Assembly (NCBI GenBank): GCA_041601615.1
Contig: JBFIHX010000002.1
Coordinates: 192,001-256,000, forward strand
DNA: 64,000 nucleotides
Source of the DNA: Thermoplasmatota archaeon
Lineage (GTDB): Archaea; Thermoplasmatota; E2; JACPAO01; JAHFTW01
Direction of reading: 5' to 3'
Of the stretch, positions 18,328-43,893 are shown piece after piece. Numbering within the stretch: position 1 is the stretch's first letter; each line of letters begins with the position of its first letter. The notes under the pieces were generated by a model. The model saw only the letters and a program-made list of their open reading frames with translations, searched no databases and had not been told where the DNA came from. The translations under genes were made by a program, and so were the position numbers.

Positions 18328-18328
18328 C

Positions 18329-27957: not shown

Positions 27958-28033
27958 TTGGGTAATGCGGCAAATCAAGACCATCGCCGACTAAACCAGG
28001 CTTATATTGATTTCAACCCACATCAATCACCTC

Positions 28034-28495: not shown

Positions 28496-29036
28496 GCCGC
28501 CACCAACCTCGATGGATTGCCGCATCCTTGGCCACCTTGTCGCCCTTCTTGGCGGCGGCCAAGACATGCGCCCTCATGCGGCGGCTCGCGGCGTACGGCG
28601 GAAGCTTCTGGCTGCGAATCCACCGCACCATCGAACTTTCGCTGACTCCAGCACGCTCCGCTGCCTGCTTCGACGAGGTGGACAAGCAATACGCGGCCCA
28701 CCGCTTCAACTGCATCTCCGACTTCCAAGGCCGAATCGTCCGATTCGCCTTGGCCTTCGAAGGAACATGCCTGCGCTTGCGCCACCCCTGGACGCCCGAC
28801 CTCGAAACCCCAAGAAGTTCCGCCACCTCCCGATCACTATCGGTGGCATCGACCCCCTGAAGCACCGACACAGGGGGTGGTAGCGGCGCGTACCCCCCGT
28901 TCGCCGGCAACTCAGCCCGACGCCGCCAGTACCGAATTAACGATGCACTGACGCCCAGCAGCCCGCCAATCTCGTAGTCGAACCAACCCTCGTCATACAG
29001 CACGCGACAAGCATCTACGTCGAAAGAAAACGGCAT
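28488..29036 (-). CDS. Protein with three tandem HTH repeats
   Basis: EIGGLLGVS..LIRYWRRR; EVAELLGVS..VQGWRKR; QAAERAGVS..MVRWIR. Confidence 0.75.
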   Translation of the reverse strand: MPFSFDVDACRVLYDEGWFDYEIGGLLGVSASLIRYWRRRAELPANGGYAPLPPPVSVLQGVDATDSDREVAELLGVSRSGVQGWRKRRHVPSKAKANRTIRPWKSEMQLKRWAAYCLSTSSKQAAERAGVSESSMVRWIRSQKLPPYAASRRMRAHVLAAAKKGDKVAKDAAIHRGWWRRE

Positions 29037-29290: not shown

Positions 29291-29364
29291 GGGCTGCTAG
29301 CTTAGTCAGGTAGAGCATCGGACTCTTAATCCGACGGTCGCCGGTTCGAACCCGGTGCAGCCCG
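29291..29364 (+). tRNA. tRNA-Lys(CTT)
   Basis: Cloverleaf with acceptor GGGCTGC/GCAGCCC, anticodon arm TCGGA-CTCTTAA-TCCGA and TTCGAA T-loop; no CCA. Confidence 0.95.
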
Positions 29365-29491
29365 CCTACCCTCCGTCTTCCAGGGACACTTTTTGATTCG
29401 CTGTAGCGGGTCGCTTGGCGGGATTTTTGCTGGGCGCAACGAAGGAAATTGAGGAAGAAGGAGGGGGCGGCACGTGATGGCGGGTCGTGGC

Positions 29492-29995
29492 CTAGGCGGC
29501 GTTTTCGACGTTGGGTTCGATTTCCACCATGACGGTCGTTGCTTCCACGTTGGCGCCGGTTGTGACGTGGACGCGGCTGACGGTGCCGGTCATGGGGGAT
29601 TTGAGGTCGTTTTGCATCTTCATGGCTTCCAGCACGAGGATGATGGCGCCTTCTTCGACGGGGTCGCCTTCTTTGACGCGCACTTCGACGATCTTGCCGG
29701 GCATGGGGGGTTTGATTTTGCCGTCTTTGCGGCGGCCGGCGCCTCCGGCTCGTACTAGCTCGGGTTTGGCGCGGCGGATTTCGAGGTCCAGGACGGTGCG
29801 GTCGAGGAGGAAGTTGCCGTCTTCGATGCGGAATTCGAAGCTGTCGCCTTCGAGGGTTGCGCGGTAGTGGCTGGGGCCGAGGCGTTCGACTTCGGGTTGG
29901 AAGCTGGTGCCTTCGACGAGGAAGCGCGGGCCTTCGGCGTGTTCTTCGAGTTGGACGTAGTGGGTGCGTCCGTCGAGTTTGAATCCGTAGCGCAT
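29492..29995 (-). CDS. accB: Biotin carboxyl carrier protein
   Basis: PMPGKI and LEAMKMQN biotinylation motif; TAATG overlap. Confidence 0.92.
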   Translation of the reverse strand: MRYGFKLDGRTHYVQLEEHAEGPRFLVEGTSFQPEVERLGPSHYRATLEGDSFEFRIEDGNFLLDRTVLDLEIRRAKPELVRAGGAGRRKDGKIKPPMPGKIVEVRVKEGDPVEEGAIILVLEAMKMQNDLKSPMTGTVSRVHVTTGANVEATTVMVEIEPNVENAA

Positions 29996-31566
29996 TAGTT
30001 CCACACTCCTGAGTTTTCGCGGCGGGCTCGTTGGCCCCATGAGTTGAGCACGCGGCGGCCGTGTTCGTCTGCGTCGCCGTTGGCACTCTTGAAGCCGTAA
30101 TTGCGGTTGACGAAGGCGTCGATGCCGCCGGGTTCTTGGCTCATGGCTGCGGCGAGGGCGGCCAGCAGTTTGCGGGTGCCGGCGTCGGTTTCTTCGGCTA
30201 CTCCGTTGTAGCGCTCGAGGACGTTGTGTTCGTCGAGGTACTTGGTGGTCATGTCGCCGGCGCAGAAGGGCGCGTCTTCCATCAGGAGTTGGTGCAGGCC
30301 GCGGTTGGTGACGAGGTCGCCGAGGTCGTATTCGGCAAGTGCGCGGCGCATTTTGCGGATGGCGTCGGGGCGGTCGCTGCCGGTGACGATGAGCTTTGCG
30401 ACCATGCTGTCGTAGCTGCTGGGGACTTTGAGGCCGGCGTAGAGGAAGGTGTCGACGCGCACGCCGTTTCCTTGTGGGGGGGCGTGGCGTTTGATGGTGC
30501 CGGGGGTGGGCATGAAGTTTTGGCCCGGGTCTTCGGCGTTGATGCGGCATTCGATGCTCCAGCCGCGTTTGCGGGCGTCCACGGTGGCCTGATCGTAGCC
30601 CAGGGGTTCGCCTGCGGCGACACGGATCTGTTCGCGCACGAGGTCCATGCCGTACACTTGTTCGGTGACGGGGTGTTCGACTTGCAGGCGGGTGTTGACT
30701 TCGTTGAAGTAGAATTCGCCGTTCTCGTAGAGGAATTCGGCGGTGCCGGCGTTGGTGTATCCGACGGTCTTCGCGAGGGCACACACGGCGGCTCCGACGC
30801 GGGCGCGGTCTTCGTCGGTGACGATGGGGCTGGGTGCTTCTTCGATGAGTTTCTGGTGGCGGCGCTGGATGCTGCATTCGCGCTCGCCAAAGTGGACGGC
30901 GTTGCCGTGGGTGTCGGCGAGCAATTGGATTTCGATGTGGCGGGGTCGGCCGATGAATTTCTCGATGAAGCATTCGTGGCGGCCGAAGGCGGCTTTGGCT
31001 TGGCGTTGTGTTGCGCCGAGGGCTTCTTCGAGGTCCGCTTCGGATTTGACGACGCGCATGCCCATGCCGCCTCCTCCGAAGGCTGCTTTGATGATGACGG
31101 GGTAGCCGGCGACATCTGCTGCGACTTTGGCTTCTTCGAAGGTCTCGACGAATTGGTCGAGGCCGGGAACGACCGGGACGCCGGCGGCGCGGGCGGCTTC
31201 TTTGCTGGCCACTTTGTCGCCGAGGATGCGGATGGCGCTAGCGGGTGGGCCGATGAAGGTGATGCCGGCCTTTGTCAGGGCGTCTACGAAGTCGGCGCGT
31301 TCGGAGAGGAACCCGTAGCCGGGGTGGACGGCGTCGGCGCCGCTCTTGAGGCAGGTTTCGACGATGGCGTCGATGTCGAGGTAGTTGGTGGCGGCGGATT
31401 CGTCGCCGAGGAGGTATGCTTCGTCGGCAAACTTGACGTGTGCAGATTGGGCGTCTTGGGGCGAGTGGATGGCGACGGTCTTGATGCCGAGTTCGCGCGC
31501 GGTGCGCATGACGCGCAGGGCAATCTCGCCGCGGTTGGCGACTAGGATCTTCGTGATTTCAGGCAT
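29995..31566 (-). CDS. accC: Biotin carboxylase subunit of acyl-CoA carboxylase
   Basis: LVANRGEIA, HPGYGFLSE, GGGGMGM, ERECSIQRRHQK and EVNTRLQVEH. Confidence 0.95.
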   Translation of the reverse strand: MPEITKILVANRGEIALRVMRTARELGIKTVAIHSPQDAQSAHVKFADEAYLLGDESAATNYLDIDAIVETCLKSGADAVHPGYGFLSERADFVDALTKAGITFIGPPASAIRILGDKVASKEAARAAGVPVVPGLDQFVETFEEAKVAADVAGYPVIIKAAFGGGGMGMRVVKSEADLEEALGATQRQAKAAFGRHECFIEKFIGRPRHIEIQLLADTHGNAVHFGERECSIQRRHQKLIEEAPSPIVTDEDRARVGAAVCALAKTVGYTNAGTAEFLYENGEFYFNEVNTRLQVEHPVTEQVYGMDLVREQIRVAAGEPLGYDQATVDARKRGWSIECRINAEDPGQNFMPTPGTIKRHAPPQGNGVRVDTFLYAGLKVPSSYDSMVAKLIVTGSDRPDAIRKMRRALAEYDLGDLVTNRGLHQLLMEDAPFCAGDMTTKYLDEHNVLERYNGVAEETDAGTRKLLAALAAAMSQEPGGIDAFVNRNYGFKSANGDADEHGRRVLNSWGQRARRENSGVWN

Positions 31567-32437
31567 GGAGGGTCTCCGGTTCAGAGGATGAGGGGGAGGG
31601 GAGAGAAGCGGTGGGGGGAGGGGATGGGAGGAAGGGCAGGGTGAGGGCGACGGCGAGTCCGGCCTTGACGATGTCGAAGGGCAGGAAGACGGTGCTGCCG
31701 AGTGCGATGGATTGGATGAGGGTGTAGGGTGTGAGGGCCCAGAGGACGGTGACGCCGCAGGCGTGCAGAAGCAGGAGCGTGCCTAGCATCACGAGCCAGA
31801 GGTTGGCGGCTGCGGCGCCTTCGCCGCGTTTGTTGCCAAGCAGGACGTAGGTGAGGCCGAGGCTTGTGAGGGTGATGAATGCGAGGGCCCAGAGGGTGCT
31901 GGCGCCGACGCCGAAGTCGGCTTCGAGGCCGGTGCCGGTGCGGTTCATCCAGGCGATGACGGCGACGGCGGCGACCAGCGATACGGCCACCAGTGCCACC
32001 AGAGCGACGAGCAGGCGGTGGGGTAGGTGTGGGCGGCGGTGTTGCATGTATCTGCTAACGAGTGCTGCGACGAGTACGAAGCCGAACAGGTAGCCGGCGG
32101 TGGCGCCGACGAAGTGTTGTAATCCGCTAGCGCCTTGGGCAAAGACTGGGGCGCCGAGGGCTCCGGCGGCAAGATAGATGAGCACGGAAAGGGCGGCCAA
32201 GCCGGGCTTTTGGTAGCCGCCGGCCACCAGCAGCGCGAAGGGCATCATGGAGAAGGGCACGGGAGTCCAAGGCAGCGGGAAGCTGATTTGTGCCATGAGG
32301 GCCAGGAATCCTGCAAAGCCGAGGCTGGTGGCGAGGCGCACGGGCCAGCCGGGGACCGTGGGCGTTGCTAGGAGGTGCGACAGCACTTGCTCGTTCTGGC
32401 CCATGCGGGCGCCACATTCAGCCCCGGGTTTAGGCAT
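31559..32437 (-). CDS. bioY: Biotin transporter BioY with extra TM insertion
   Basis: PLP.TPVPF, YL..GA.GAPVFA, T.GYL.GF and FLPFD..K. Confidence 0.88.
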   Translation of the reverse strand: MPKPGAECGARMGQNEQVLSHLLATPTVPGWPVRLATSLGFAGFLALMAQISFPLPWTPVPFSMMPFALLVAGGYQKPGLAALSVLIYLAAGALGAPVFAQGASGLQHFVGATAGYLFGFVLVAALVSRYMQHRRPHLPHRLLVALVALVAVSLVAAVAVIAWMNRTGTGLEADFGVGASTLWALAFITLTSLGLTYVLLGNKRGEGAAAANLWLVMLGTLLLLHACGVTVLWALTPYTLIQSIALGSTVFLPFDIVKAGLAVALTLPFLPSPPPTASLPSPSSSEPETLHA

Positions 32438-35400
32438 GGCTGGCGGTCTCCGGTTCTTCGGTCATGGGGTCGAAGTCGGCGAGGCTCACGGCGAGTACGC
32501 GGCCTTCGATGCTCCAGAAGCGCACGCCGAAGGTGCCGTCGGGGCCGGTGACGGTTGCTCCTCCGGCGCCGTCGGGCATGACGGTCCAGGCGCGTAGCGC
32601 GGAGCGGAGGCCTGTGCCGGTGCGTTTGAAGACGGCTTCTTTGGCGGCCCACATGCAGGCAGCGGCGTTGTCGTCGGCGGCTACGGGGGCTTCGGTGTCG
32701 TTGAAGGCTTCTTCGCGCCAGGCGGCGGATCGCTGTTTGACGGTTTCGAGGTCGATGCCGAGGGCGGTGGGGGCCAGGGCTGCGATGGCGAGGCCGTCGC
32801 GGTGGGTCAGGCTGAGTTCGTAGTTGGCTGCTTTTCCGTGTAAGTGCAGGACCGGTTTGCCGCCATCGGAGTTGACCACCGTGACCTCAAGCGCGGAGAC
32901 GTTGGCTCCGGCTGCGATGGCGACTGCTTTGGCGGCGAGTCGTCCGGCGCGCCATTCTTCGGCGCGCTTGGGGGCCTTGAACGCTTCTGCGGTGCCGAGT
33001 TCTTCTTCCGTGAACCATTGGGGGTCGGGGTCTGCGTCGGCGACGGGGACGGCGGCAAACAGGGCGCCGGTGTCGTCGGGAAGGCCGAGGTCCACGGTGG
33101 GAATGGGGACGGCTTCGGGTTCTGCCGAGGCGGCGGCGGGCGTGCTTTCGGACAGGGTTTTTTGCACGGGTGCGGCGGAGTTGTCCGTGGCTTGGGGTTC
33201 CGACAGTTCCACGATTGGCTTGGGCGTCGCGTCCTTGTCTGCGTGCCCGTTTTGGTGGCCGTTGGTGGGTTCGGATGCCGCTGGAGGCGCGGGGGTGTCG
33301 GTGTCGCTGCCGGGGACGTCTCCGGTTTCGACCATGCCGTATTGGACCATGCGGACGAGGACGGCGCCGTCTTCGGTGCAGGCGGCGGCGTCGAAGCGGT
33401 AGAGGCCGTTGTCGTCGCGACCGGCAAATCGAGTCCAGAGTCGTGTTTCCTTGGGCAGGGGCCCGTAGTGCAGGATGTCCAGGCGTTCGATGGCAGCGGG
33501 CAGGCTCATGCGGCCATCGACGGTCATGGTGCGCAGACCGCAGACCTGGAACAGGGCTTCCACGAGCAGCGGGTGGACGTGCCATTCTGGCGATGTTCCT
33601 TCAAGCACGGGCGCTTCGGGGGTGACGCCGATGCCGACGCTTTCGTCGTCGAGTGGGCCGGCGTAGCGTAGCACTTGGAAGCTTGGGCCGTGGAAGAATG
33701 GCGGGTAGATCGAAGCGTGGTCGCGGTCGCGGGTGCAGGCGGGCACTTCGCTGGTGCGGCGGGGGGCTGCGGCGGCGCCGAAGTGGATCGTGGCGGCAAA
33801 GTGGGTCCGTGGCTCGCCGCGTTCTTTGCCGTCAGGGCCGACCATGCGGCTCCAGAGCGTGCAGGTGATTCCGTCGCCTTCGGCGGCGCGGGTTGCGGTG
33901 ATGCGGGCCACGGCGGGGCGGTCCTTGAGTTGCTTTAGGGGGATGCCGAAGGAGGCGTTGGTCACACGAGTACAGACGGTGTCGGCGGGTGCAAGAAGGG
34001 AGGCTGTCTCGGCGAAGGCTTCGAGGCCAAACACGCCGGGCAGGTAGGGCACGCCGTCGATGGCGTGATCGCGAGCGTAGGCTTGGGTCGCTTGGTCCAT
34101 TTCGATGCGCGTGGTCACCGAGTCGGCCGTTGCGGTCTCGACGCCGGCCAGAAGCGCGAACCGTTCGGGTGCGGATTCCATGCGGGCTTGGTGTTCGCCG
34201 AGGCGCGGGTCCCATGCAGCGTCGACCACTTGGCCGTCGGCGTCGATGGCGCCCACGTTCCCAGCGACGACCGATTCGCGGATGCCGGGGGTGCCTAGTT
34301 CGGCGAGGAATTGGGCGACTCCGTCGGCGGTGGGGATCGGAGTCACACCGGTGCTTTCCATGATTTGCAGGATGCTGCCTTTGGTCGCCATGCCCACTTC
34401 GCCCCAGGGGCCCCATGCGATGGTGAATGCGGTGGGGACGTTGCGCTCGGCTGCGGCGACTTGGACGGCCTTGCAGAGGTATTCGTTGGCGGCGCTGTAG
34501 TCGGTTTGGCCGATGTTGCCAAAGCGTCCGGCGACACTGCCGAAGGCCACCAAAAATTCGAGCTCGTCTTCGGCGGTGGCGGCCATGAGGGCGTTCCAGC
34601 CGTCGTGTTTGATGCCAAAAACCCAGTCGAATTGCTCGCGGTCCTTCGAGGCGAGGTCTTTGCTGATTTCGACGCCGGCTGCATGGATGACGCCGTGGAT
34701 GGCGCCGAATCGTTCGCGTGCGTGGTCGAGGGCTTCGCGCACGGCGTCGTGGTCGGTGACGTCGACGCTTGCGTAGGTCACTTCGGCGCCAAGATCCGAG
34801 AGGCGTTGCAGGTTGCGTTGCACTTCGGCGGCTTTGCGAAGTGGCGACATGGCTTTCTGAATCGACACCGGGGTGACCTTGGCGCCGGCTTCCTTCATCG
34901 CGGCCATTTGGCGTTGTTCTTCGGCCTTCCACTCATCGTCCGTCCAGCTGGCCCAGGTTTCGGCTTCTTCGGCCATGGTGGTGCGGCCAAGCAGCATGAA
35001 GTTGGGGTGTTGCGGTGCGAGGGCGGCCAGGAGTTCGACGGTGATGCCTTGGGCACCGCCGGGAACGATGAGGGTCTTGCCGGAGACATTCGGGGTGCCT
35101 TCGAGCGCTTCGGGAGCTACGTCGATGACAAACCGGGTACCCTCCGCGTCAAAGGCAATCTCGGTGCGGCGGCCGCCTTCGATGACTTCGGCAAGCACCA
35201 TGGCGGGGGCGTCCGAAAGTTTGGGGTGGAGATCGATGACCTTGACCACGGCGCCTTCGAATTCCTTTTTGAGTGCCTTGCCGAAACCGGCCACGGCGGC
35301 CATGGTGGCGTCGCGGGGAGCCGCCAATCCGTGGGCTCCGTCTTGGCGAGTGACGACTGCGACGAAGCCGTTTTTGAGGGCGTTTTGGTGCGCTTTGGCG

Positions 35401-38400
35401 GCGTCGAACATGGGTCCGAGGCGAGCGGGAGCGGAGTCCCCGCGTCGCGTGGCGAGGCACAGCAGACCGACGGGGGTGTCGTCGTCGTGCAGGCGGAAGG
35501 TTGGCTTCCAGCCGGCTTCTTTCCAGGCGTCCAGGAATGCGGTGTCGGCGTCGCCGACCACGAGGAGGGTTCCTTTGGCAAGGTCGTTGCTTTGGTGGGG
35601 GCTGGGGGCGGGGCGCACCGTGGGCACGCGGCGAACGATCGCTTGGCTGGGCTCAGAGGCCGTGGTCGCATCTGCCGTGGCATCGGCGGCGGGCGCGTCG
35701 GTTGCGCCGGCGTTGCTTGCCATATATGCGGCGACCTTGGCGAGGGTGTTGTAGTCCTTGAGTTGCAGGTCCTCGCGCATCGGGACGCTGAAGCGGTCGC
35801 GCAGTTCGCCAAACAGTTCGGCTTGCTTGACGGTGTCAATGCCAAGGTCTGCTTCCATGTCCAGTTCGGGTTCGAGCATGTCCACGGGGTAGCCGGTTTT
35901 ATCGGCCACGAGGGCGATGACTTGGGCCAGTACGTCGGCGGTGTCGGTGCCGGCCGTGGATGCGGCAGCGGGCGCTGGCGTCGAAACCACAGTGGCGACG
36001 GGCGCAGCGGCGCTTGCTCCTCCACCCATATATGCCGCGACTTTTCGCAGCGTGTTGTAGTCGGCGAGGCTCAGGTTTTCGTCGAGCGGGACGCCGAAGT
36101 GATCGCGCAGTTCGCCAAACAGTTCGGCTTGTTTGACGGTGTCGATGCCGAGGTCTGCTTCCATGTCGAGATCCGCTTCGAGCATCTCGACGGGGTAGCC
36201 GGTTTTGTCCGCGATGACGGCGGTGACCTTGGCAAGCACTGCATCGTCGGTCTCGGCGGTGGTCGCGGAAACCGGTGTCGCGGGTGCGGCGGCAGCCGGC
36301 GAGGCGGCGGCGGGTGCACTTTCTGCGGTGGCGACGGGCGCGGCGGTGCTGCCTCCCACGCCAAGCCCGACTTGCGTCGGACTCGGCCGCGCCGAAACTT
36401 CGCTTTGCGAAGTTCCGCCACCCATGTACTCGGCCACTTTGCGCAGGGTGTTGTAGTCCTTGAGTTGGAGATTTTCGTCGAGCGGCACGCCGAAGCGGTC
36501 GCGCAGTTCGCCAAACAGTTCGGCTTGTTTGACGGTGTCGATGCCGAGGTCCGCTTCCATGTCGAGGTCGGCTTCGAGCATCTCGGGTGGGTAGCCGGTT
36601 TTTTCGGCCACGAGGGCGGTTACGTCGGCCAGCACATCGGTTTCGGGTGCGGTTTGTGCGGCGGCGGGAACGGGGGCGGGCGATGCGACCTCTGCGGCGG
36701 CGATGGGCGCGGAGTTGCTTGTTCCTCCAGCCATATATCCCGCGACCTTGCGCAGGGTGTTGTAGTCCTTCAAGGACAGCGATTCGTCCAGGGGCACGCC
36801 GAAGGTCTCGCGAAGCTCGCCAAACAGTTCGGCTTGCTTGACGGTGTCAATGCCGAGGTCCGCTTCCATGTCCAGATCTGCTTCGAGCATCTCAGGCGGG
36901 TAGCCGGTCTTGGAGGCGACGAGGTCCGTCACTTTCTGCAGCACGTCGGCTTCGTCTGCGACCACGACAGGCGAGGCGACTGCGGCGACGGGGGCAGGTT
37001 CGGCTGCTACCACGACAGCGGGTGCGGTGCGCTCGGGTGCTCCTTGGTCCACGATGCGCAGGGTGCGGTTTTGCACCTCGGTTGCGGCGGCGGGAAGGCC
37101 ACTGACGCTGGACAGCCAAGCGTCGTACTGGGCCTGGTTTGCCACGCGCTCGTCTTCGCGGGCCACGAGTTGGGTGAGGGTCATGGCGACTTGGCTGCCG
37201 AATCCGGCGGCGAGGCGTAAGGCGTAGCGCACGTCGTAGGCGCCGCCCTTGGACAGGTTGAGGTCGCCCAGTTCGGGGTCGGGGTCGCGGAAGTTGGCGA
37301 TGGGGGGCACGGTGCCGCGTTGGAGTGCCTTGAGGGCAATCGCATCTTCAACGCCGGCACCTTGTGGGTGTCCCGTGAAGCCCTTGGTGTTGGCGATGAC
37401 GACCTTGTTGGCGTTGGTGCCGAAGGTCGCGCGCAGGGCGTGGATTTCTGCCGAGGCCGAGCCGCCGCGTGCGGGGGTGTAGGTCTCGTGGCTCATGAAC
37501 ATGGTCTGGGCCGCGATGGCGTCGGCGTGGATGCCGTACCGGGCGCCGGCTTTGGCCATGAGGCCCTGCATGCATTGGCTGATGTGGTCCACGTCGAGGC
37601 GGCTGCCGTGGAAGGCGCTGTTTGCGACGGTGGTGGCCAGGAGTTTGGCGATGGGTCGCATGCCGCGTGCTTCGGTTTCGGGGGTGGCTTCGATGACGAG
37701 GCCGACGGCGCCCATGCCGACAATCATGCCATGGCGCCGAGCGTCGAAGGGAAGGGCTGCGTCTTCTACGCGGTTTTTGGTCGTCGCGGCGCCGGAGGCC
37801 AGGAATCCGCTGCCGATCCATTCGAAGAGGGCGTCGCTGGTTACATCGTCGGCGCCGACTACGAGTACGCGTTTGCAGCGGCCGGTGCGAATCCAGTCTT
37901 CGGCGACGGTGATGGCTTGGGTGGTGCTGGCGCAGGCGGCGTTGAGTTGGGTGTTGGGTCCGCGAGCACCGATGAATTGCGCGAGTTGCGCGTGTCCCAT
38001 ACTTAGGACGTTGAACAGGAATTTGCGGTTGAATTCGTAGCGGGCAGCGCCGTGGTCGGGCAGCACGTCTTGCAGGCGGGCAAATTCCGCTTCAAAGCCG
38101 GTGGTGAGGTTGTTGCGTAGGTCGTCGTCGGTAACTTGGCCAAGCAGTTCGTCGTAGAGGTTGCGCAGGTCGTCGAGGGTGCGGCCGGCGTATTTGTCGG
38201 CAAGGTATCTGCTGATGTCGCGCACGAGGTTGTCGATGCCGGGGAAGGCGCTGGCAAACACGATGCCTGTGTCGTCGCGCATGGGTTCGGGCAGTTTCCA
38301 GTCCTTGGGCAGGTGGCTGCCGGTGGTGGTTTGGAGGTAGGTGCGCTGGAGCGGGATGCCTGCGTCGCGTAGTGCTTCGAGGCCGGCGGCGATGGCGTAT

Positions 38401-41400
38401 TGGAAGGTGCGGTCGAGGGTGGAGGCGAAGTCGGCGTCGACGCCCCATTCGGTGACGTCGAAGTCGCCGCGGCGGCCTGCGAGTTGGATGACTTGGGCGA
38501 TGTCGTCGATGGCTTGGAAGGTGCCTTGGCCGCCGCCGCCTTTGACGAGGCGGACGATGTTTTTGCTGGCCATTTTTTGCTGCTCGGTTTCGGGCAGGGC
38601 GTCGATGAGGTTGTCGCCGCGCAGGATGCGGTCCCAGTCGTCGGTGGCAAAGAGTGGTTTGTGGGTGCCGGGGAGTCCAACACTGATGCCGCTGATGCCG
38701 ATGTCGTCGAGGTTGATGCCGAAGGCGTCCATCTTCGCCTTTAGTAGCAATTCGCTACTGTTTGGTAGGTTTTTGCTACTAAGGGCTGCGACGGGGGCTG
38801 GGGCGCTGGTGGCTACGGCGGAGGCGGGTGCGGAGTTTGTGGTCGGAGTCGGAGTGGAGGGGGCGGCGGGCGAGGAGCTCATGCCGTCGAGGGTGCGGGC
38901 TAGGTCGCGAAGGGCGCCGGCGATGATGTCGATGCGGGCGTCGGCCACGGGTGCGGGCGCGGCTGCGGGGGCGGCTTGGGCGAGGGCGCTCGTGGTGCGG
39001 GTGAAGGCGGTTTTGGGCTCGCGGAATTCTGCGGTGTAGACGGCGGAGTCGTTGAGGTCCGGGAGCTTGGGAAGGTAGCCCCAGGCGCCGAGGAAGGCAA
39101 ACAGTTCGTTGATGTGTTGGATTCCGCCCTTTTTGGGGTGGTTGGCGCAGATGGCGACGGCGTCGCCTTTGCTGCCGAGGATGTCGTAGGCGAATCCGGT
39201 GAGCGCCTTCTTGGGGCCCACTTCGATGAAGGTGCGCACACCTTCGCTGTACATGCGCTCCATGATGTCGATCCATTCGACGGGGCTTGCCACTTGCACG
39301 GCGAGGTTGTCGCGGATGGCTTCGGGGTCGTTGCCGTAGGGTTCGGCGCCGACGTTGCTGAGGATGCGGACCTTGGGGGCTTGCACGTCGAGGCGGGCCA
39401 ATACGTTGCGCAGGGGTTTGCTTGCGGGGGCGACGATGTCGCTGTGGAAGGCGGCGCTGACGGGCAGTGGGATGCACTGGAGGCCTTGTGCGGTGAGTTT
39501 GGCCATGGCGGCGTCCACTCCGGCGCTGCTGCCGGCGATGACGGTTTGGCTGGGGCAGTTTTTGTTGGCGCAGATGACGTATTCGTCTACGTCGGCGATG
39601 GCGGCGGACACGGTTTCCCAGTCGGCGGGGATGCTGGCCATTTTGCCAAGGTCGGGAAGATCCACGTTGGCCATTTCGCGGCCGCGTGCGGCGACGGCGT
39701 GGAGCGCGTCGGCGAAGGTGAGGACGCCGGCTGCGACCAGGGCGCCGTATTCGCCGAGTGAGTGTCCGGCGACCACGTCGGGTTGGATGCCCCATTGCTT
39801 CATCATGCGAAGCAGGGCGACGTCCATGGCAAGAACGGCGGGCTGGGTGAACTCGGTGAGTTTGAGTTTTTCTTCGGAGGCGGCGCGGTTTTCGGCGGTG
39901 TCTGGGGTGGGCCAGAGGATGTCGGTGAGTTTGACGCCGTCCAGTTCGTCGTGGAGGACTGCGTCGGCTTCTTCGAAGGTGTGTTTGACGACGGCGTATT
40001 TTTGGGCAAGGTCGCGGCCCATGTTGACGTACTGGGTGCCTTGGCCGGGGAATAGGAAGGCGACTTTGCCGCGTGGTTCGCCTTGGCCTAGAAATACGCC
40101 TTGGTTGAAGGCGAGTTTGGCGACGGCGGATTGGGTGGCGGCTTTGGCGGCGAGTTCCAGCTTCTTGGGGATTTCGTCAAGGTCCGTGGGGGCGATGCCG
40201 ACGCGGCGCTCGGCGCGTACACCGGCTTGGGTGAGTTCGTAGAAGGCGGCGCGGTAGCGGGGGCCGTTGCCGGTCTTGGCGAAGGTCACGGCCGAGGGAA
40301 GCGCGGTGAGGCTTGCGGGGAGGGCGTCGGCGTCTAGGACGAGCGGAGTCTGTTCTAGTGCGGCGGCTTGCTCCATGTGGGAAGCAAAGCCGGCGGCGTC
40401 GAAGGTGGTCATGGGGATGGTCGCCTCGGGTTGCGTCGTGGCGGACGGAGGGGTGGGGGCTGTGGCGGCGGTGGGCGCCGGGGCGGGGATGGGTGCGGAG
40501 TTGCGGGTGGCGGGGTCCACGAATTGGAGGGCGCCGGGAACGTATTGTTCGAGGACGACGTGGAAGTTGGTGCCGCCGAATCCGAAGCTGCTGACGGCGG
40601 CGCGGCGCGGGTGGTCGGCAGGGGTTTCCCAGGGCGTTCGGGACGTTGCGACTTGGAAGGGGCTGGTGGCCCATTCGATTGCGGGGTTGAGGGTCTGGAC
40701 GTTGATGCTGGGTGGAATGATGCCTTCGCGCACGGCGAGCACGGCCTTGAGCATCCCGGCGGCGCCGGCGGCGGCCTTGAGGTGGCCGATGTTGCTTTTG
40801 ACGGATCCGACGCGGATGCTGCCGACGGGTACGTCGGCGGCGCGGATCTGTTGGAACGCTTCGCGCACCGAATTGAGTTCGACGGGGTCGCCAACGGGGG
40901 TGCTGGTGCCGTGGGCTTCGACGTAGCCGACGGTGTAGGGGTCCATTTCGGCTTCTTCATAGGCGCGGCGTACGGCTTTGACTTGGCCGCGCGGGTTGGG
41001 GGCGGTGATTCCCTTGCCTTTGCCGTCGCTGCTGCCGCCAACGCCTCGGATGACGGCGTGGATGCGGTCGCCGTCGCGTTCGGCGTCGCCGAGGCGTTTG
41101 AGGATGAACATGGCGCAGCCTTCGCCCATGACGAATCCGTTGGCGCCGGCGTCGAAGGGCCGGCTGCCGTCGGGCGACAGGGCTCCGATGGCGCTGAATT
41201 GGATGTAGGGCGTGATGTCCATGCTGCGGTCGGTGCCGCCCCAGACGACGAGGTCGCTTTCGGCGTCACGAAGAGAGTCGATGGCGGCGTCGAGGGCCGC
41301 AAGGGAGGACGCGCAGGCGGCGTCGGTGGTGAAGTTCTTGCCCCCGAGGTCGAACACGTTGGCGATGCGGCCGGCGACCACGTTGGACAGGTGCCCCGGC

Positions 41401-41981
41401 ATGGTGTCTTCGGTGACGGGGACGGTGTTGGCTTTGTAGCGCGCTTCGGCGCGGTCGAGCATCGCCGCCCGATCGCTGCTGCTGAGGTGTTGGAAGGTCT
41501 CATCGGCTTCGATGGCGGCGCGGGCTTCGGGCCAGAAGAGGCGTTTGGTGGCAATTTTGTTGGATTCGCCGCCCATGGCGTTGCCGATGATGACGGCGGT
41601 GCGGTTGCGGTCGAAGTCGCGTCCGGGTGCGTCGCCTCGGATGCCGGTTGCGAGTCCCGCGTCGAGGAGTGCTTGGCGGGCGGCCGACAGCGCCCACTGT
41701 TGGCTTTGGTCCACCTGTTTTTGCACTTGTGGCGGCATGCGGTATTCGAGGCCCTGGAAGTTGTCGTCGCTGACGAAGGCGCCGATTTTGGCGTAGGTTT
41801 TGTCTGGTGTTTTTGCCGAGTCGTAGTAGAGCGCGGTGTCCCAGCGGGTGGGCGGGACTTCGCGGATGCTGTTGCGGCCCTCGACGAGGTTGTTCCAGAA
41901 GGTTGGAATGTCGGGGGCGTCGGGCAGGACGCAGCCCAGGCCGATGATGGCGATGGGCTCCTTGGTGACGGTGTCGGACAT
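32430..41981 (-). CDS. Type I iterative PKS/FAS-like megasynthase: KS-AT-KS-4xACP-KR-DH-PPTase
   Basis: KS1 DAACASS/HGTST/NIGH; AT GQG.Q, GHSLG, AFHS; KS2 NAACAST/SHET/TGH; 4x LGIDTVKQ; KR GGAQGI..YSAAN; DH H.IDG...LPG; PPTase GIDLE..WAAKEA..K. Confidence 0.92.
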   Translation of the reverse strand: MSDTVTKEPIAIIGLGCVLPDAPDIPTFWNNLVEGRNSIREVPPTRWDTALYYDSAKTPDKTYAKIGAFVSDDNFQGLEYRMPPQVQKQVDQSQQWALSAARQALLDAGLATGIRGDAPGRDFDRNRTAVIIGNAMGGESNKIATKRLFWPEARAAIEADETFQHLSSSDRAAMLDRAEARYKANTVPVTEDTMPGHLSNVVAGRIANVFDLGGKNFTTDAACASSLAALDAAIDSLRDAESDLVVWGGTDRSMDITPYIQFSAIGALSPDGSRPFDAGANGFVMGEGCAMFILKRLGDAERDGDRIHAVIRGVGGSSDGKGKGITAPNPRGQVKAVRRAYEEAEMDPYTVGYVEAHGTSTPVGDPVELNSVREAFQQIRAADVPVGSIRVGSVKSNIGHLKAAAGAAGMLKAVLAVREGIIPPSINVQTLNPAIEWATSPFQVATSRTPWETPADHPRRAAVSSFGFGGTNFHVVLEQYVPGALQFVDPATRNSAPIPAPAPTAATAPTPPSATTQPEATIPMTTFDAAGFASHMEQAAALEQTPLVLDADALPASLTALPSAVTFAKTGNGPRYRAAFYELTQAGVRAERRVGIAPTDLDEIPKKLELAAKAATQSAVAKLAFNQGVFLGQGEPRGKVAFLFPGQGTQYVNMGRDLAQKYAVVKHTFEEADAVLHDELDGVKLTDILWPTPDTAENRAASEEKLKLTEFTQPAVLAMDVALLRMMKQWGIQPDVVAGHSLGEYGALVAAGVLTFADALHAVAARGREMANVDLPDLGKMASIPADWETVSAAIADVDEYVICANKNCPSQTVIAGSSAGVDAAMAKLTAQGLQCIPLPVSAAFHSDIVAPASKPLRNVLARLDVQAPKVRILSNVGAEPYGNDPEAIRDNLAVQVASPVEWIDIMERMYSEGVRTFIEVGPKKALTGFAYDILGSKGDAVAICANHPKKGGIQHINELFAFLGAWGYLPKLPDLNDSAVYTAEFREPKTAFTRTTSALAQAAPAAAPAPVADARIDIIAGALRDLARTLDGMSSSPAAPSTPTPTTNSAPASAVATSAPAPVAALSSKNLPNSSELLLKAKMDAFGINLDDIGISGISVGLPGTHKPLFATDDWDRILRGDNLIDALPETEQQKMASKNIVRLVKGGGGQGTFQAIDDIAQVIQLAGRRGDFDVTEWGVDADFASTLDRTFQYAIAAGLEALRDAGIPLQRTYLQTTTGSHLPKDWKLPEPMRDDTGIVFASAFPGIDNLVRDISRYLADKYAGRTLDDLRNLYDELLGQVTDDDLRNNLTTGFEAEFARLQDVLPDHGAARYEFNRKFLFNVLSMGHAQLAQFIGARGPNTQLNAACASTTQAITVAEDWIRTGRCKRVLVVGADDVTSDALFEWIGSGFLASGAATTKNRVEDAALPFDARRHGMIVGMGAVGLVIEATPETEARGMRPIAKLLATTVANSAFHGSRLDVDHISQCMQGLMAKAGARYGIHADAIAAQTMFMSHETYTPARGGSASAEIHALRATFGTNANKVVIANTKGFTGHPQGAGVEDAIALKALQRGTVPPIANFRDPDPELGDLNLSKGGAYDVRYALRLAAGFGSQVAMTLTQLVAREDERVANQAQYDAWLSSVSGLPAAATEVQNRTLRIVDQGAPERTAPAVVVAAEPAPVAAVASPVVVADEADVLQKVTDLVASKTGYPPEMLEADLDMEADLGIDTVKQAELFGELRETFGVPLDESLSLKDYNTLRKVAGYMAGGTSNSAPIAAAEVASPAPVPAAAQTAPETDVLADVTALVAEKTGYPPEMLEADLDMEADLGIDTVKQAELFGELRDRFGVPLDENLQLKDYNTLRKVAEYMGGGTSQSEVSARPSPTQVGLGVGGSTAAPVATAESAPAAASPAAAAPATPVSATTAETDDAVLAKVTAVIADKTGYPVEMLEADLDMEADLGIDTVKQAELFGELRDHFGVPLDENLSLADYNTLRKVAAYMGGGASAAAPVATVVSTPAPAAASTAGTDTADVLAQVIALVADKTGYPVDMLEPELDMEADLGIDTVKQAELFGELRDRFSVPMREDLQLKDYNTLAKVAAYMASNAGATDAPAADATADATTASEPSQAIVRRVPTVRPAPSPHQSNDLAKGTLLVVGDADTAFLDAWKEAGWKPTFRLHDDDTPVGLLCLATRRGDSAPARLGPMFDAAKAHQNALKNGFVAVVTRQDGAHGLAAPRDATMAAVAGFGKALKKEFEGAVVKVIDLHPKLSDAPAMVLAEVIEGGRRTEIAFDAEGTRFVIDVAPEALEGTPNVSGKTLIVPGGAQGITVELLAALAPQHPNFMLLGRTTMAEEAETWASWTDDEWKAEEQRQMAAMKEAGAKVTPVSIQKAMSPLRKAAEVQRNLQRLSDLGAEVTYASVDVTDHDAVREALDHARERFGAIHGVIHAAGVEISKDLASKDREQFDWVFGIKHDGWNALMAATAEDELEFLVAFGSVAGRFGNIGQTDYSAANEYLCKAVQVAAAERNVPTAFTIAWGPWGEVGMATKGSILQIMESTGVTPIPTADGVAQFLAELGTPGIRESVVAGNVGAIDADGQVVDAAWDPRLGEHQARMESAPERFALLAGVETATADSVTTRIEMDQATQAYARDHAIDGVPYLPGVFGLEAFAETASLLAPADTVCTRVTNASFGIPLKQLKDRPAVARITATRAAEGDGITCTLWSRMVGPDGKERGEPRTHFAATIHFGAAAAPRRTSEVPACTRDRDHASIYPPFFHGPSFQVLRYAGPLDDESVGIGVTPEAPVLEGTSPEWHVHPLLVEALFQVCGLRTMTVDGRMSLPAAIERLDILHYGPLPKETRLWTRFAGRDDNGLYRFDAAACTEDGAVLVRMVQYGMVETGDVPGSDTDTPAPPAASEPTNGHQNGHADKDATPKPIVELSEPQATDNSAAPVQKTLSESTPAAASAEPEAVPIPTVDLGLPDDTGALFAAVPVADADPDPQWFTEEELGTAEAFKAPKRAEEWRAGRLAAKAVAIAAGANVSALEVTVVNSDGGKPVLHLHGKAANYELSLTHRDGLAIAALAPTALGIDLETVKQRSAAWREEAFNDTEAPVAADDNAAACMWAAKEAVFKRTGTGLRSALRAWTVMPDGAGGATVTGPDGTFGVRFWSIEGRVLAVSLADFDPMTEEPETASHA
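35720..36955 (-). repeat. Four tandem near-identical ACP-coding repeats with Ala/Pro-rich linkers
   Basis: KTGYP.EMLE..LDMEADLGIDTVKQAELFGELR..F.VP....L.L.DYNTL repeated four times. Confidence 0.9.
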
Positions 41982-42092: not shown

Positions 42093-43703
42093 TTAGAGGG
42101 GGGTGAGGCCGTGCTTCTTGGCGGGCCGGGTTTCGCGCTTTTGCAGGAGCGGTAGCAGGGCTGCGATGAGGCGGGGCCGGGTCTCGCGGGGTTCGATGAT
42201 GTCGTCGATCCAGCCGCGTTCGGCCGCGACATACGGATTGGCGAATTTGCGTTCGTATTCAGCGGTGAATTCGGCTTTGCGTGCCTCGGCTGCGGCGGGG
42301 TCGGTTTTGGCAAGTTCCATGAGTTCGCGCCGGTGCAAGATTTCCACGGCGCCGCTGCCGCCCATGACGGCGATTTCGGTGCCGGGCCAGGCGAGGTTGC
42401 AGTCGCTTCCCACGTGCTTCGAGGACATGACGATGTAGGCGCCGCCGTAGGATTTGCGCAGAACCACGGAGAGCTTGGGCACGGTGGCTTCACAGTAGGC
42501 GTACAGGAGTTTGGCTCCGTTGCGGATGATGCCGCCGTGTTCCTGGCCAAGGCCGGGCAGGAAGCCGGGCACGTCCACGAAGCTGACGATCGGGATGTTG
42601 AAGGCGTCGCAGAAGCGGATGAATTTGGCGCCTTTGATGCTGGCTTCGATGTCGAGGGCACCGGCGAGGACGGCGGGTTGGTTGGCGACGATGCCGACGG
42701 GGATGCCGTCGAGGCGGCTGAAGCCAATGACGAGGTTTTGGGCCCACTTGGGTTGAATTTCTAGGAACGAATCGGTGTCCACTACGCGCTTGACGACGTC
42801 GCGCACGTCGTAGGGTTTGTTGGCGTTGGAGGGGACGATGTTGTCCAATTCGGGGTCCATGCGGCCGCGTGCGTCGCCGGGGTTTTCCTTGATGGGGAGG
42901 TCGGCGAGGTTGTTGGCGGGAATGTAGCTGAGAAGTTTGCGGATGAGGAAGATGCTGTCGTCTTCGTCGACGCCGCTGAAGCTTGCGACACCGGATTTTA
43001 CGGTGTGGACGCTGCTGCCGCCGAGTTCCTCTTGGCTGGCTTCTTCGCCGGTGACGGTCTTGACCACGTCGGGGCCGGTGACGAACATGTGGCTGGTGTC
43101 GTCCGTCATGATGACGAAGTCGGTGAGGGCGGGGGAGTACACGGCGCCGCCGGCAGAAGGGCCGACGATGACCGAAATCTGCGGCACTACGCCGCTGGCC
43201 TTGACGTTCCTGAAGAAAATGTCACCGTAGCCGGCAAGGCTTGCCACACCTTCTTGGATGCGTGCGCCGCCAGAGTCATTGAAGCCGATGACGGGGGCTC
43301 CGATGGCGAGCGCCTGGTCGAGGACTTTGGCAATTTTTTGCCCGGTTTGGTAGCCGAGGCTGCCGCCGAGGACGGTGAAGTCTTGGGCGTAAGTGAAGAT
43401 GACTTGGCCGTTGATGGTGCCGTGGCCGGTGACGACGCCGTCGCCGTCGAAGGCGTGACGATCCATGCCAAAGTCGGTGGATTGGGTGCGCACGTAGGGA
43501 TCCATCTCTACGAAGGAGCCTGGATCGAGCAGAAGTTCGATGCGTTCGCGGGCGGTGTATTTTCCCTTCTTGTGTTGCGCTTCGATGCGAGCTGCCCCGC
43601 CTCCCATGTGTGCCTTGGCGCGGCGTTCGCGCAGGATTTCCACGGGGGAGGGCTTGATGTGGCCGTTCGTAGCCTGGGGGCTCGCGGGGACGGTCTTGGC
43701 CAT
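42093..43703 (-). CDS. pccB: Acyl-CoA carboxylase carboxyltransferase (PccB-like)
   Basis: ARERI..LLD.GSF, DSGGARIQEG, GGAVYSPALTD, DVPGFLPG and K.YGGAY; ATG at 43703. Confidence 0.93.
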   Translation of the reverse strand: MAKTVPASPQATNGHIKPSPVEILRERRAKAHMGGGAARIEAQHKKGKYTARERIELLLDPGSFVEMDPYVRTQSTDFGMDRHAFDGDGVVTGHGTINGQVIFTYAQDFTVLGGSLGYQTGQKIAKVLDQALAIGAPVIGFNDSGGARIQEGVASLAGYGDIFFRNVKASGVVPQISVIVGPSAGGAVYSPALTDFVIMTDDTSHMFVTGPDVVKTVTGEEASQEELGGSSVHTVKSGVASFSGVDEDDSIFLIRKLLSYIPANNLADLPIKENPGDARGRMDPELDNIVPSNANKPYDVRDVVKRVVDTDSFLEIQPKWAQNLVIGFSRLDGIPVGIVANQPAVLAGALDIEASIKGAKFIRFCDAFNIPIVSFVDVPGFLPGLGQEHGGIIRNGAKLLYAYCEATVPKLSVVLRKSYGGAYIVMSSKHVGSDCNLAWPGTEIAVMGGSGAVEILHRRELMELAKTDPAAAEARKAEFTAEYERKFANPYVAAERGWIDDIIEPRETRPRLIAALLPLLQKRETRPAKKHGLTPL

Positions 43704-43722
43704 GGCTTTGCGGGGCCGGGGA

Positions 43723-43730
43723 TCATATAT
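43723..43730 (-). promoter_or_regulatory. TATA-like box for the carboxylase/PKS operon
   Basis: ATATATGA 20-27 nt upstream of ATG 43703. Confidence 0.45.
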
Positions 43731-43893
43731 CAGGCTTCGCGTAGAATTTTCCGGCAATGGTAGGGAATCGGGTGCCCGCGGTTCGGCAATTGTCGTTTGG
43801 TGCACTGACTGGTTGGGCTGACTCGAACATGTCAAGGGTCAAAGCCGCCGCTTGGGCGGTCGTTGCAGCGCGTTGCATTGGGTGTTGCTGGGC

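What the first reader, a model, noticed from the sequence alone, without database searches (positions are those of the whole stretch)
35720..36955. All four ACP domains carry threonine (GIDTV) at the canonical phosphopantetheinyl-serine position
Seen: each repeat reads DLGIDTVKQ, with ACC codons at 36843-45, 36534-36, 36138-40 and 35832-34 (about residues 1713, 1816, 1948 and 2050). Synonymous sites and flanking residues differ among the repeats while the Thr is kept. No GxDS ACP is visible elsewhere in the protein or window. Established: ACPs, including PfaA tandem ACPs (LGIDSIK), are phosphopantetheinylated on a Ser in the GxDS motif. Inference: the KS, AT, KR, DH and PPTase catalytic motifs look intact, so this synthase may use O-phosphopantetheinyl-threonine carriers, a non-canonical modification. 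Alternatively the ACPs are structural and the chemistry runs on CoA.
Basis: partly seen in the sequence, partly recalled or inferred. Interest (0 to 1): 0.88.

Follow-up and report, generated by a model that had tools for sequence, protein, structure and literature searches.

The report
Threonine-type carrier domains in archaeal synthase
An archaeal fatty-acid/polyketide-type megasynthase, like most members of a very large and apparently undescribed family, carries threonine where every textbook acyl carrier protein has the serine that holds the phosphopantetheine arm, which suggests that this cofactor can be attached to threonine in nature.

Summary
The 3183-aa gene at 32430-41981 (-) has four carrier (ACP) domains, each reading DLGIDTVKQ, with ACC codons at the stated coordinates. 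The Thr aligns with the phosphopantetheine (Ppant) Ser of solved ACPs and is the first residue of helix II in a confident model.

The trait is not peculiar to this gene. It marks a large family with the architecture KS-AT-KS2-ACPn-KR-DH. Of the 120 best homologues, 108 have only Thr carriers. In 38 genome loci, 98 carrier motifs are Thr (all four Thr codons) and none is Ser. The array is found in 127 of 401 genomes of the window's archaeal phylum. A PPTase is always fused or adjacent.

In one archaeal family, orthologues toggle between D-S-I (4 genomes) and D-T-V (7 genomes) in an otherwise identical motif. This is the strongest evidence that Thr does the job of Ser.

The same genome uses Ser in its NRPS carriers and has no free-standing ACP.

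Ten searches of the open literature found no report of Thr-linked Ppant. E. coli ACP S36T is reported as unmodifiable.

Best reading (0.65): the co-encoded PPTase attaches Ppant to Thr. This is not proven, and mass spectrometry would settle it.

The parts
42093..43835 (-). Carboxyltransferase subunit of an acyl-CoA (acetyl-CoA) carboxylase; first gene of the operon
   Evidence: Pfam Carboxyl_trans, 630.8 bits. 79% identical to the gene upstream of the synthase in archaeal locus L041.
32430..41981 (-). 3183-aa megasynthase: KS1-AT-KS2-ACPx4-KR-DH-PPTase
   Evidence: ORF. Pfam domains. TIGR02813 PfaA scores 1051.9 bits against a cut-off of 1010.1.
40542..41960 (-). KS1 (residues 8-480)
   Evidence: Pfam ketoacyl-synt, Ketoacyl-synt_C and KAsynt_C_assoc. 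The Cys (DAACASS) and the two His (EAHGT, NIGH) can be read. Coordinates.
39198..40058 (-). Acyltransferase (residues 642-928), GHSLG motif
   Evidence: Pfam Acyl_transf_1, 153 bits. Also matches TIGR00128 FabD.
37032..38714 (-). KS2 (about residues 1090-1650), a FabF-like second ketosynthase with its Cys (NAACAS)
   Evidence: Best solved relatives are FabF enzymes, 2gqd at 1.8e-26. Present in 85 of 87 long Thr-type homologues at this position and in 0 of 10 gammaproteobacterial Ser-type PfaA.
36726..36956 (-). ACP1, Thr1713 (ACC at 36843-36845)
36417..36647 (-). ACP2, Thr1816 (ACC at 36534-36536)
36021..36251 (-). ACP3, Thr1948 (ACC at 36138-36140)
   Evidence: AF2 model with pLDDT 87.3 and Thr as the first residue of helix II. 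ACP fold with TM about 0.8.
35715..35945 (-). ACP4, Thr2050 (ACC at 35832-35834)
34401..35060 (-). Ketoreductase (residues 2308-2527)
   Evidence: Pfam KR, 109.4 bits.
33333..34148 (-). PKS-type dehydratase (residues 2612-2883), HAIDGVPYLP motif
   Evidence: Pfam PKS_DH_N and PS-DH.
32433..33026 (-). C-terminal Sfp-type phosphopantetheinyl transferase domain (about residues 2986-3183)
   Evidence: Pfam ACPS 35.6 bits (cut-off 25), plus a weak 4PPT_N hit. Aligns to Sfp 1qr0/4mrt with H, GIDLE and WAAKEAVFK conserved. These residues are invariant in 20 PPTases.
31559..32437 (-). BioY-family biotin transporter
   Evidence: Pfam BioY, 93.3 bits. Same position in archaeal locus L013.
29995..31566 (-). 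Biotin carboxylase
   Evidence: Pfam Biotin_carb_N, CPSase_L_D2 and Biotin_carb_C. 70% identical to the L013 gene.
29513..29995 (-). Biotin carboxyl carrier protein
   Evidence: tblastn with the L013 BCCP (Pfam Biotin_lipoyl) gives 59% identity over 161 aa at C2:221513-221995, which is window 29513-29995.

Best explanation
The four domains are working acyl carrier domains whose 4'-phosphopantetheine arm is attached to a threonine, not a serine. The Thr is the first residue of helix II, in the motif D-T-V. The Sfp-type PPTase fused to the C-terminus of the same protein would transfer Ppant from CoA onto that hydroxyl.

The holo-carriers then serve an iterative synthase (KS1-AT-KS2-ACP4-KR-DH). 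It is fed with malonyl-CoA by the acetyl-CoA carboxylase encoded around it (CT, BC, BCCP, plus the BioY biotin transporter). The product is a long fatty-acyl or polyenoyl chain.

What is shown: the sequence facts, the homology of the Thr to the Ser, family-wide conservation, PPTase linkage, and Ser/Thr exchange among orthologues.

What is inferred: that Ppant really sits on Thr, that the co-located PPTase is adapted to Thr, and the nature of the product. No enoyl reductase was found in this operon.
For: 1. Homology of position. The Thr aligns with the Ppant Ser of solved ACPs. It starts helix II in an AF2 model (pLDDT 87.3) whose nearest folds are all ACPs.

2. No other hydroxyl residue is available. 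The only residues invariant in 30 aligned carriers that carry an OH are T23 (KTGYP), Y25, T44 (the D-T-V Thr) and T73. There is no conserved Ser.

3. Strong purifying selection on Thr. There are 554 Thr motif copies in 109 of the 120 best homologues. There are 98 Thr and 0 Ser codons in the 33 of 38 genome loci that reach the ACPs, using ACG 54, ACC 39, ACA 3 and ACT 2. Of 57 carrier motifs in 20 further archaeal regions, 53 are Thr.

4. The enzymes are otherwise intact. Of 83 long Thr-type proteins, 82 keep the KS Cys motif, 83 the KS His, 83 the AT GHSxG, 76 the KR motif and 73 the DH motif, by strict regex.

5. A PPTase is always at hand. It is fused in the window and in archaeal loci L009, L010, L013 and L041, and is a separate gene nearby in bacterial loci. 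It lies directly downstream in all 6 loci examined from family f12. Its catalytic residues are invariant. In archaeal genome G004 the only PF00550 matches are the three Thr carriers, so the fused PPTase has no other detectable substrate.

6. A natural swap. In family f12, orthologous synthases with the same architecture read DLGID-T-V-KQAEIM in 7 genomes and DLGID-S-I-KQAEIM in 4. P0083 has one DSV carrier beside five DTV carriers.

7. Thr is specific to these carriers. NRPS carriers of the same genome, and stand-alone ACPs of bacterial hosts, keep Ser.
Against: There is no experimental or proteomic evidence for Ppant on Thr.

In the classical system, Ser-to-Thr abolishes function. E. coli ACP S36T 'cannot be post-translationally modified by 4'-PP' and cannot replace acpP (PMC3340395, passages). 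Spinach ACP-I S38T/C is reported to lose function (as summarised in the background of PMC9310384).

I found no residue in the linked PPTases that would explain acceptance of Thr. The catalytic motifs look like ordinary Sfp-type motifs, and the 3-versus-3 comparison in f12 is confounded by ancestry.

The archaeal operon lacks an enoyl reductase and a release domain, so the pathway is incomplete as read.

Carriers within one protein evolve in concert, so domain counts overstate the number of independent observations.
Confidence: 0.65

Rival explanations
1. The Thr carriers are never phosphopantetheinylated. They would be structural or docking repeats, and the catalytic domains would work on CoA thioesters or on some carrier not recognised here.
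For: S36T in E. coli ACP is not modified (PMC3340395). Archaea are described as making fatty acids without ACP (bioRxiv 10.1101/2024.07.05.601840, passages). There is no direct evidence of modification.
Against: A merely structural repeat would not be expected to keep D-T invariant in hundreds of copies with synonymous turnover. It would also not be expected to keep 3-8 tandem copies, or to exchange only with Ser. A PPTase with intact catalytic residues is fused or adjacent in every locus that reaches far enough. In genome G004 that PPTase has no other PP-binding domain to act on.
Confidence: 0.12
2. The Thr is functional but carries something other than a standard Ppant phosphodiester. It might hold a different CoA-derived group, or the acyl chain might sit directly on the Thr as an oxoester. 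Alternatively, Ppant might be attached to another residue.
For: No rule forbids it, and the secondary alcohol of Thr is a poorer acceptor. The helix II residues that follow the site differ consistently from Ser-type PfaA: TVKQAE.F against SIKRVEIL.
Against: The linked enzyme is an ordinary Sfp-type PPTase by Pfam and by alignment. Ser-type orthologues in f12 have the same downstream PPTase. KS chemistry needs a thioester. No other conserved Ser exists in the domain.
Confidence: 0.1
3. Assembly or sequencing artefact, or an unusual genetic code that reads ACN as Ser.
For: The tandem repeats collapse in short-read unitigs.
Against: The same Thr codons occur in dozens of independent assemblies from archaea and several bacterial phyla. 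The same genomes use TCN/AGY Ser in their other carriers. No variant letters were seen in four runs.
Confidence: 0.01

Closest known systems
PfaA subunit of bacterial polyunsaturated fatty acid (PUFA) synthases (TIGR02813)
   Same: An N-terminal KS-AT, an array of near-identical tandem ACPs, then KR and a PKS-type DH. The carrier domains are clearly homologous: KTGYP...ML...D.EADLG.D and helix II. The window protein scores just above the PfaA cut-off.
   Different: PfaA carriers read LGIDSIKRVEIL with Ser: 73 of 73 copies in the 11 Ser-type proteins among the 120, from Shewanella, Colwellia, Psychromonas and unnamed sources. This family reads LG[IV]DTVKQAE.F. It has an extra FabF-like KS2 between AT and the ACPs, which PfaA lacks. 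It has a fused or adjacent PPTase. In the window there are no PfaB/C/D partners, but there are acetyl-CoA carboxylase genes.
Self-priming synthases with a C-terminal PPTase: enediyne PKSE (KS-AT-ACP-KR-DH-PPTase) and the fungal FAS alpha subunit (recalled from memory, not tested here)
   Same: A PPTase domain fused behind KR-DH lets the synthase activate its own carriers. This is useful in a host (an archaeon) that otherwise has little ACP machinery. One weak PDB hit of the PPTase domain was to the fungal FAS alpha subunit, 4v58, E 0.054.
   Different: Those enzymes use a Ser carrier, have one ACP, and have no second KS. No sequence-level membership was tested.
Canonical ACP with Sfp/AcpS phosphopantetheinylation on the D-S-L serine
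   Same: The same fold, the same position at the N-terminus of helix II, the same preceding Asp, and the same PPTase catalytic residues.
   Different: The acceptor is Thr. In E. coli ACP the S36T change blocks modification (PMC3340395). None of my ten searches of the open library found a report of Ppant on Thr.

Membership tests
Acyl carrier protein / PP-binding (PF00550) | Profile match above the curated cut-off | tested here: met
   129.8 bits against 20.8, four stretches.
Acyl carrier protein / PP-binding (PF00550) | Helical-bundle ACP fold with the attachment residue at the start of helix II | tested here: met
   AF2 model with pLDDT 87.3; helix II starts at the Thr. Foldseek top hits are all ACPs, TM 0.7-0.8.
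Acyl carrier protein / PP-binding (PF00550) | Conserved Ser in the D-S-[LIV] motif as the Ppant acceptor | tested here: not met
   Thr in all four domains and in 554 copies across homologues.
Acyl carrier protein / PP-binding (PF00550) | Covalent 4'-phosphopantetheine on the domain | not testable with these tools
   Needs mass spectrometry.
PfaA of PUFA synthase (TIGR02813) | Score above the NCBIfam cut-off | tested here: met
   1051.9 against 1010.1, a narrow pass.
PfaA of PUFA synthase (TIGR02813) | Domain order KS-MAT-ACPn-KR-DH with no further KS | tested here: not met
   An extra FabF-like KS2 and a C-terminal PPTase. KS2 is absent from 10 of 10 gammaproteobacterial PfaA.
PfaA of PUFA synthase (TIGR02813) | Clustered with pfaB/pfaC/pfaD (AT, KS-CLF-DH2, ER) | tested here: not met
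   The neighbours are ACC subunits and BioY. No PfaD-type ER was found in the genome, by PF03060 (weak hits only) or by tblastn with the Bellilinea PfaD (no hit).
Sfp-type PPTase (PF01648 with 4PPT_N) | Profile match, and the catalytic His, the Asp/Glu of GxDxE and the Glu/Lys of WxxKExxxK (residue roles recalled from Sfp) | tested here: met
   ACPS 35.6 bits against 25; 4PPT_N 19.2 bits, below its cut-off of 27. Alignment to 1qr0/4mrt. These residues are invariant in 20 sequences.
Biotin-dependent acetyl-CoA carboxylase (multi-subunit) | CT, BC and BCCP components present | tested here: met
   Substrate specificity (acetyl- versus propionyl-CoA) was not tested.
Enediyne PKSE | KS-AT-ACP-KR-DH-PPTase with a single Ser ACP, clustered with enediyne genes | not tested
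   The resemblance in architecture is recalled only. The tandem Thr ACPs and KS2 differ.

The most novel reading that the evidence does not exclude
O-phosphopantetheinyl-threonine is the native cofactor linkage of a very large, so far undescribed family of KS-AT-KS2-ACPn-KR-DH synthases. It arose from Ser at least twice, each time with a compensating Ile-to-Val change at the next residue. It is installed by the family's own co-located PPTase, which would make a carrier/PPTase pair insulated from the host's Ser-specific machinery. Together with its own acetyl-CoA carboxylase, it would give about a third of sampled genomes of an archaeal phylum an ACP-dependent route to fatty acids.
Probability: 0.4. 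Interest if true: 0.9.

Novelty: new variant of a known kind. Interest (0 to 1): 0.8.

Why it matters
Every textbook, PROSITE-style rule and annotation pipeline treats the Ppant acceptor of carrier proteins as an invariant serine, and Ser-to-Thr is used as the standard 'dead' ACP mutant. A very large natural family with Thr at that site would add a new linkage to the list of protein modifications. Its scale: 785 clusters at 50% identity reach E<=1e-30 with one carrier as query, though that count includes Ser-type relatives.

It would also imply PPTases with a different acceptor tolerance, which could serve as orthogonal labelling tools. Tools that call such carriers inactive would need correcting.

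There is also a bearing on the archaeal/bacterial 'lipid divide'. ACP and ACP synthase are said to be absent from nearly all Archaea (bioRxiv 10.1101/2024.07.05.601840). Yet this ACP-dependent synthase, with its own PPTase and acetyl-CoA carboxylase, is found in 127 of 401 sampled genomes of this archaeal phylum. In some families nearly every genome has it.

Tried and rejected
Literature. The motif strings LGIDTV, GIDTVK and the like gave only unrelated papers. Four phrases for threonine phosphopantetheinylation gave zero hits. Shulse & Allen 2011 (PMC3098273), PMC13291983 and the review PMC4882568 do not mention threonine ('find' passages only). The main texts of two Marine Group II genome papers (PMC6461757, PMC6336850) contain neither 'polyketide' nor 'acyl carrier'; I do not know whether the window belongs to that group. 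Subscription journals and supplements were not searchable, so an existing report cannot be excluded.

Earlier notes of this scan: nothing was returned.

Expression: no RNA holder was listed.

PPTase determinant of Thr acceptance. I compared 19 Thr-linked PPTases with the genome's NRPS-linked PPTase, and 3 Ser-linked with 3 Thr-linked PPTases in f12. No consistent discriminating residue emerged. The f12 difference (W[ML]A.E against WV[TV]KE) is not shared by other Thr-linked enzymes (W[AS]AKE).

A tree of the KR-DH region of the 120 homologues was uninformative, because only 2 Ser-type rows passed my length filter.

'Sole fatty-acid synthase' argument. This was rejected for bacteria, because Bellilinea and the other bacterial hosts also have stand-alone Ser ACPs. 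It does not apply to archaea, which do not need fatty acids for membranes.

Small Thr-type 'ACP proteins' (44 of 52 hits of 47-151 aa) look mostly like fragments or split calls of tandem arrays. I draw nothing from them.

Complex prediction was not run. A PPTase with its carrier would pass by likeness to solved complexes and could not tell Thr from Ser.
Full report
**1. The observation**

The minus-strand ORF 32430-41981 encodes a 3183-aa protein. Pfam finds:
- KS (residues 8-480)
- AT (642-928)
- further ketosynthase matches around 1330-1640
- four PP-binding stretches
- KR (2308-2527)
- PKS-type DH (2612-2883)
- a C-terminal ACPS-type PPTase (3074-3159)

NCBIfam's PfaA model is passed narrowly, 1051.9 bits against a cut-off of 1010.1.

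The protein has no G.DS motif.

The four repeats are 76-82% identical in DNA, with 15-23 synonymous codon differences per pair.

In alignments to solved ACPs (PigH 5y08, 4dxe, 1x3o, 6lvt, 1hy8) the Thr lies opposite the phosphopantetheinylated Ser. An AlphaFold model of carrier 3, built on 30 related carriers, has pLDDT 87.3 and starts helix II at this Thr. Its nearest solved folds are all ACPs, with TM about 0.7-0.8.

**2. The organism and the operon**

The genome holding the window (2.79 Mb, 30 contigs, 93% complete) has ribosomal protein L15e and a CDP-archaeol synthase homologue. It is therefore archaeal.

The nearest relatives of the synthase in named genome records are MAGs labelled Thermoplasmatota, at 60-82% identity. 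Next come Chloroflexota/Anaerolineae, including the cultured Bellilinea caldifistulae, then Woeseiaceae and Actinomycetota at 35-50%.

On the same strand the synthase is preceded by a carboxyltransferase (42093-43835). It is followed by BioY (31559-32437), biotin carboxylase (29995-31566) and BCCP (29513-29995). Archaeal loci L013 and L041 share parts of this order.

The operon therefore couples malonyl-CoA supply to the synthase.

**3. Carriers and PPTases in this genome**

PF00550 matches 11 places. Four are the domains here, and seven lie in an NRPS/PKS cluster on contig C1. Six of those seven matched my motif regex, and all six carry Ser (GG[DH]S[IL], GAHSL). No free-standing ACP was found.

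There are two PPTases: the fused one, and a 286-residue frame next to the NRPS cluster.

No PfaD-type enoyl reductase was found. PF03060 gave weak hits only, and tblastn with the Bellilinea PfaD gave none. No type II KS was found beyond thiolase-like frames.

**4. The Thr is a family trait**

Of the 120 best homologues (out of 6453 with E<=0.001 among 8000 scored candidates):
- 108 carry only Thr motifs
- 11 carry only Ser motifs; those that are named are Shewanella, Colwellia and Psychromonas PfaA
- one (P0083) has one D-S-V carrier beside five D-T-V carriers

There are 554 Thr copies and 73 Ser copies. A few regex hits lie outside carriers, for example P0083 residue 1133 in the AT domain.

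In 38 genome loci there are 98 carrier motifs, all Thr, using ACG 54, ACC 39, ACA 3 and ACT 2. Five of these loci ended before the carriers.

A phmmer search with one carrier against 1.84 billion representatives gave 6089 hits at E<=0.001, 2947 at E<=1e-10 and 785 at E<=1e-30. Of the best 150:
- 92 are Thr-type (87 clean, 5 with stray non-carrier regex hits)
- 46 are Ser-type
- 12 gave no usable motif
- none mixes Ser and Thr

The two carrier types are plainly homologous but differ in a linked set of helix II residues. Thr-type carriers read EADLG[VI]D-T-V-K-Q-A-E-x-F. Ser-type carriers read EADLGID-S-I-K-R-V-E-I-L-G.

**5. The family is architecturally distinct from PfaA**

A FabF-like second ketosynthase with its active-site Cys lies between AT and the carriers in 85 of 87 long Thr-type proteins. 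The other two are N-terminally shorter and also have it. It is absent from all 10 gammaproteobacterial Ser-type PfaA.

The gene neighbourhoods also differ from pfa clusters:
- Chloroflexi loci have a separate PPTase gene and a PfaD-type ER.
- Woeseiaceae and Actinomycetota loci have an acyl-CoA-dehydrogenase-like gene, a single-chain 1870-aa acetyl-CoA carboxylase (BC-BCCP-central-CT) and a PPTase.
- Archaeal loci have split ACC genes and a fused PPTase.

A PPTase was found in every locus that extends far enough downstream.

The PPTases keep the His, GxDxE and WxxKE...K residues that align with Sfp. The roles of these residues are recalled, not tested here.

**6. Distribution in the archaeal phylum**

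The four-carrier region matches 127 of 401 sampled genomes of the window's phylum at E<=1e-10 (63 of 262 high-quality genomes). Some families are nearly saturated: f30 58/58, f22 23/24, the window's own family f1 16/18, and f14 7/9. Others have none: f5 0/54 and f9 0/48.

In 20 regions sampled from eight families, 53 motifs are Thr and 4 are Ser.

**7. The natural experiment**

All four Ser motifs came from family f12. Following this up, 11 f12 genomes were read:
- 7 genomes (4 genera) have DLGID-T-V-KQAEIM
- 4 genomes (3 genera) have DLGID-S-I-KQAEIM

Both forms have the same architecture: two carriers, KS2 present and a PPTase gene directly downstream.

The two changes, ACN/TCN and GTN/ATN, are single-base changes and are always coupled in this family. 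Thr adds a methyl group and Val removes one, which looks like a volume-compensating pair. DSV and DTI intermediates do exist elsewhere.

On a FastTree of 15 full-length proteins, with carrier regions masked and gammaproteobacterial PfaA as outgroup, the f12 Ser forms are a basal grade and the f12 Thr forms a nested clade. The tree needs at least two changes, which would mean two independent Ser-to-Thr switches. That tree has compositional warnings and only local support values, so this is a lead, not a result.

**8. Interpretation**

Orthologues exchange Ser and Thr at this one site. No other conserved Ser exists in the domain. The synthases are otherwise intact. A PPTase is always supplied, and in archaeal genome G004 it has nothing else to act on. 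The simplest reading is that Thr is the Ppant acceptor.

Against this stand the classical results that E. coli ACP S36T is not modified and is non-functional (PMC3340395) and that spinach ACP-I S38T loses function (as summarised in PMC9310384). There is also no direct evidence at all.

I put Ppant-on-Thr at 0.65. I put unmodified or structural carriers at about 0.12, another modification or attachment site at about 0.1, and artefact at about 0.01. The remainder is unassigned.

Why Thr would be favoured is speculation. One possibility is a linkage more resistant to beta-elimination or to ACP phosphodiesterases. Another is insulation from the host's Ser-specific PPTases.

**9. Product**

KS1, AT, KS2, KR and DH with tandem carriers, fed by a dedicated carboxylase, point to an iterative fatty-acyl or polyenoyl product.

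The enoyl reductase is supplied in trans in Chloroflexi (PfaD-type). It may be supplied by the ACAD-like gene in other bacteria. No ER was identified for the archaeal operon. No thioesterase domain is present in the synthase.

The genome does encode three PlsC-type acyltransferases. This family is absent from the four archaeal control genomes.

**10. Novelty**

None of my ten searches of the open library found a description of Thr-type carriers or of Ppant on Thr. The PUFA-synthase surveys I opened do not mention it.

Subscription literature and supplements were not visible.

I rate this a new variant of a known kind, namely the carrier protein/PPTase system. Interest is high because it contradicts a textbook invariant and is directly testable.

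Noticed in passing
window 16000-28000: A stretch of lower G+C (0.555-0.571 against 0.60-0.66 elsewhere). It holds a 1879-aa DEAD/Helicase_C protein (21110-26749), a C-5 cytosine DNA methylase (26746-27957) and an HTH protein (28488-29036). It ends near tRNA-Lys (29291-29366). It looks like an integrated element or defence island beside the synthase operon.
   Followed up: no
own genome, contig C1 about 338900-367200 (loci L001-L007, L047, L054): A large NRPS/PKS cluster in an archaeal genome: frames of 6037, 1205 and 1051 aa, seven carrier domains with canonical Ser, one KS, and its own Sfp-type PPTase. The genome thus holds a Ser-carrier/PPTase set and a Thr-carrier/PPTase set side by side.
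   Followed up: partly
own genome: C6:139860-140228, C1:5379-5759, C4:72615-73007: Three PlsC-type glycerolipid acyltransferase genes (PF01553) in an archaeon that also has CDP-archaeol synthase. The family matched 10 bacterial controls and none of the 4 archaeal controls. This hints at ester-linked fatty-acyl lipids.
   Followed up: no
phylum scan; families f30, f22, f1, f14, f12: The tandem-carrier synthase is present in 127 of 401 sampled genomes of the phylum. It is nearly universal in some families (f30 58/58) and was not found in others (f5 0/54, f9 0/48). The main texts of two Marine Group II genome surveys do not mention any PKS or ACP.
   Followed up: partly
L032:8240-25155; L045:8127-25328; also L035, L044, L046: In Woeseiaceae and Actinomycetota the Thr-type synthase sits between an acyl-CoA-dehydrogenase-like gene and a single-chain, eukaryote-style acetyl-CoA carboxylase (about 1870 aa: BC-BCCP-ACC_central-CT), followed by a PPTase. 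The ACAD-like protein may stand in for the enoyl reductase.
   Followed up: partly
window 45194-47017 (+) and 60962-63289 (-): Two proteins with bacterial TSP3 (thrombospondin type 3) repeats. One also has a reprolysin-like metallopeptidase domain.
   Followed up: no
window 60292-60753 (-): A cluster of tRNA-Asp (GTC) x2 and tRNA-Val (CAC).
   Followed up: no
window 49252-51180 (-): A PIN domain fused to a PilT/T2SSE-like ATPase.
   Followed up: no
L101, L108, L110-L115, L117-L124 (family f12): On a masked-motif tree the Ser-Ile forms of family f12 are basal and the Thr-Val forms nested. This implies a second, independent Ser-to-Thr switch. It rests on FastTree only.
   Followed up: partly
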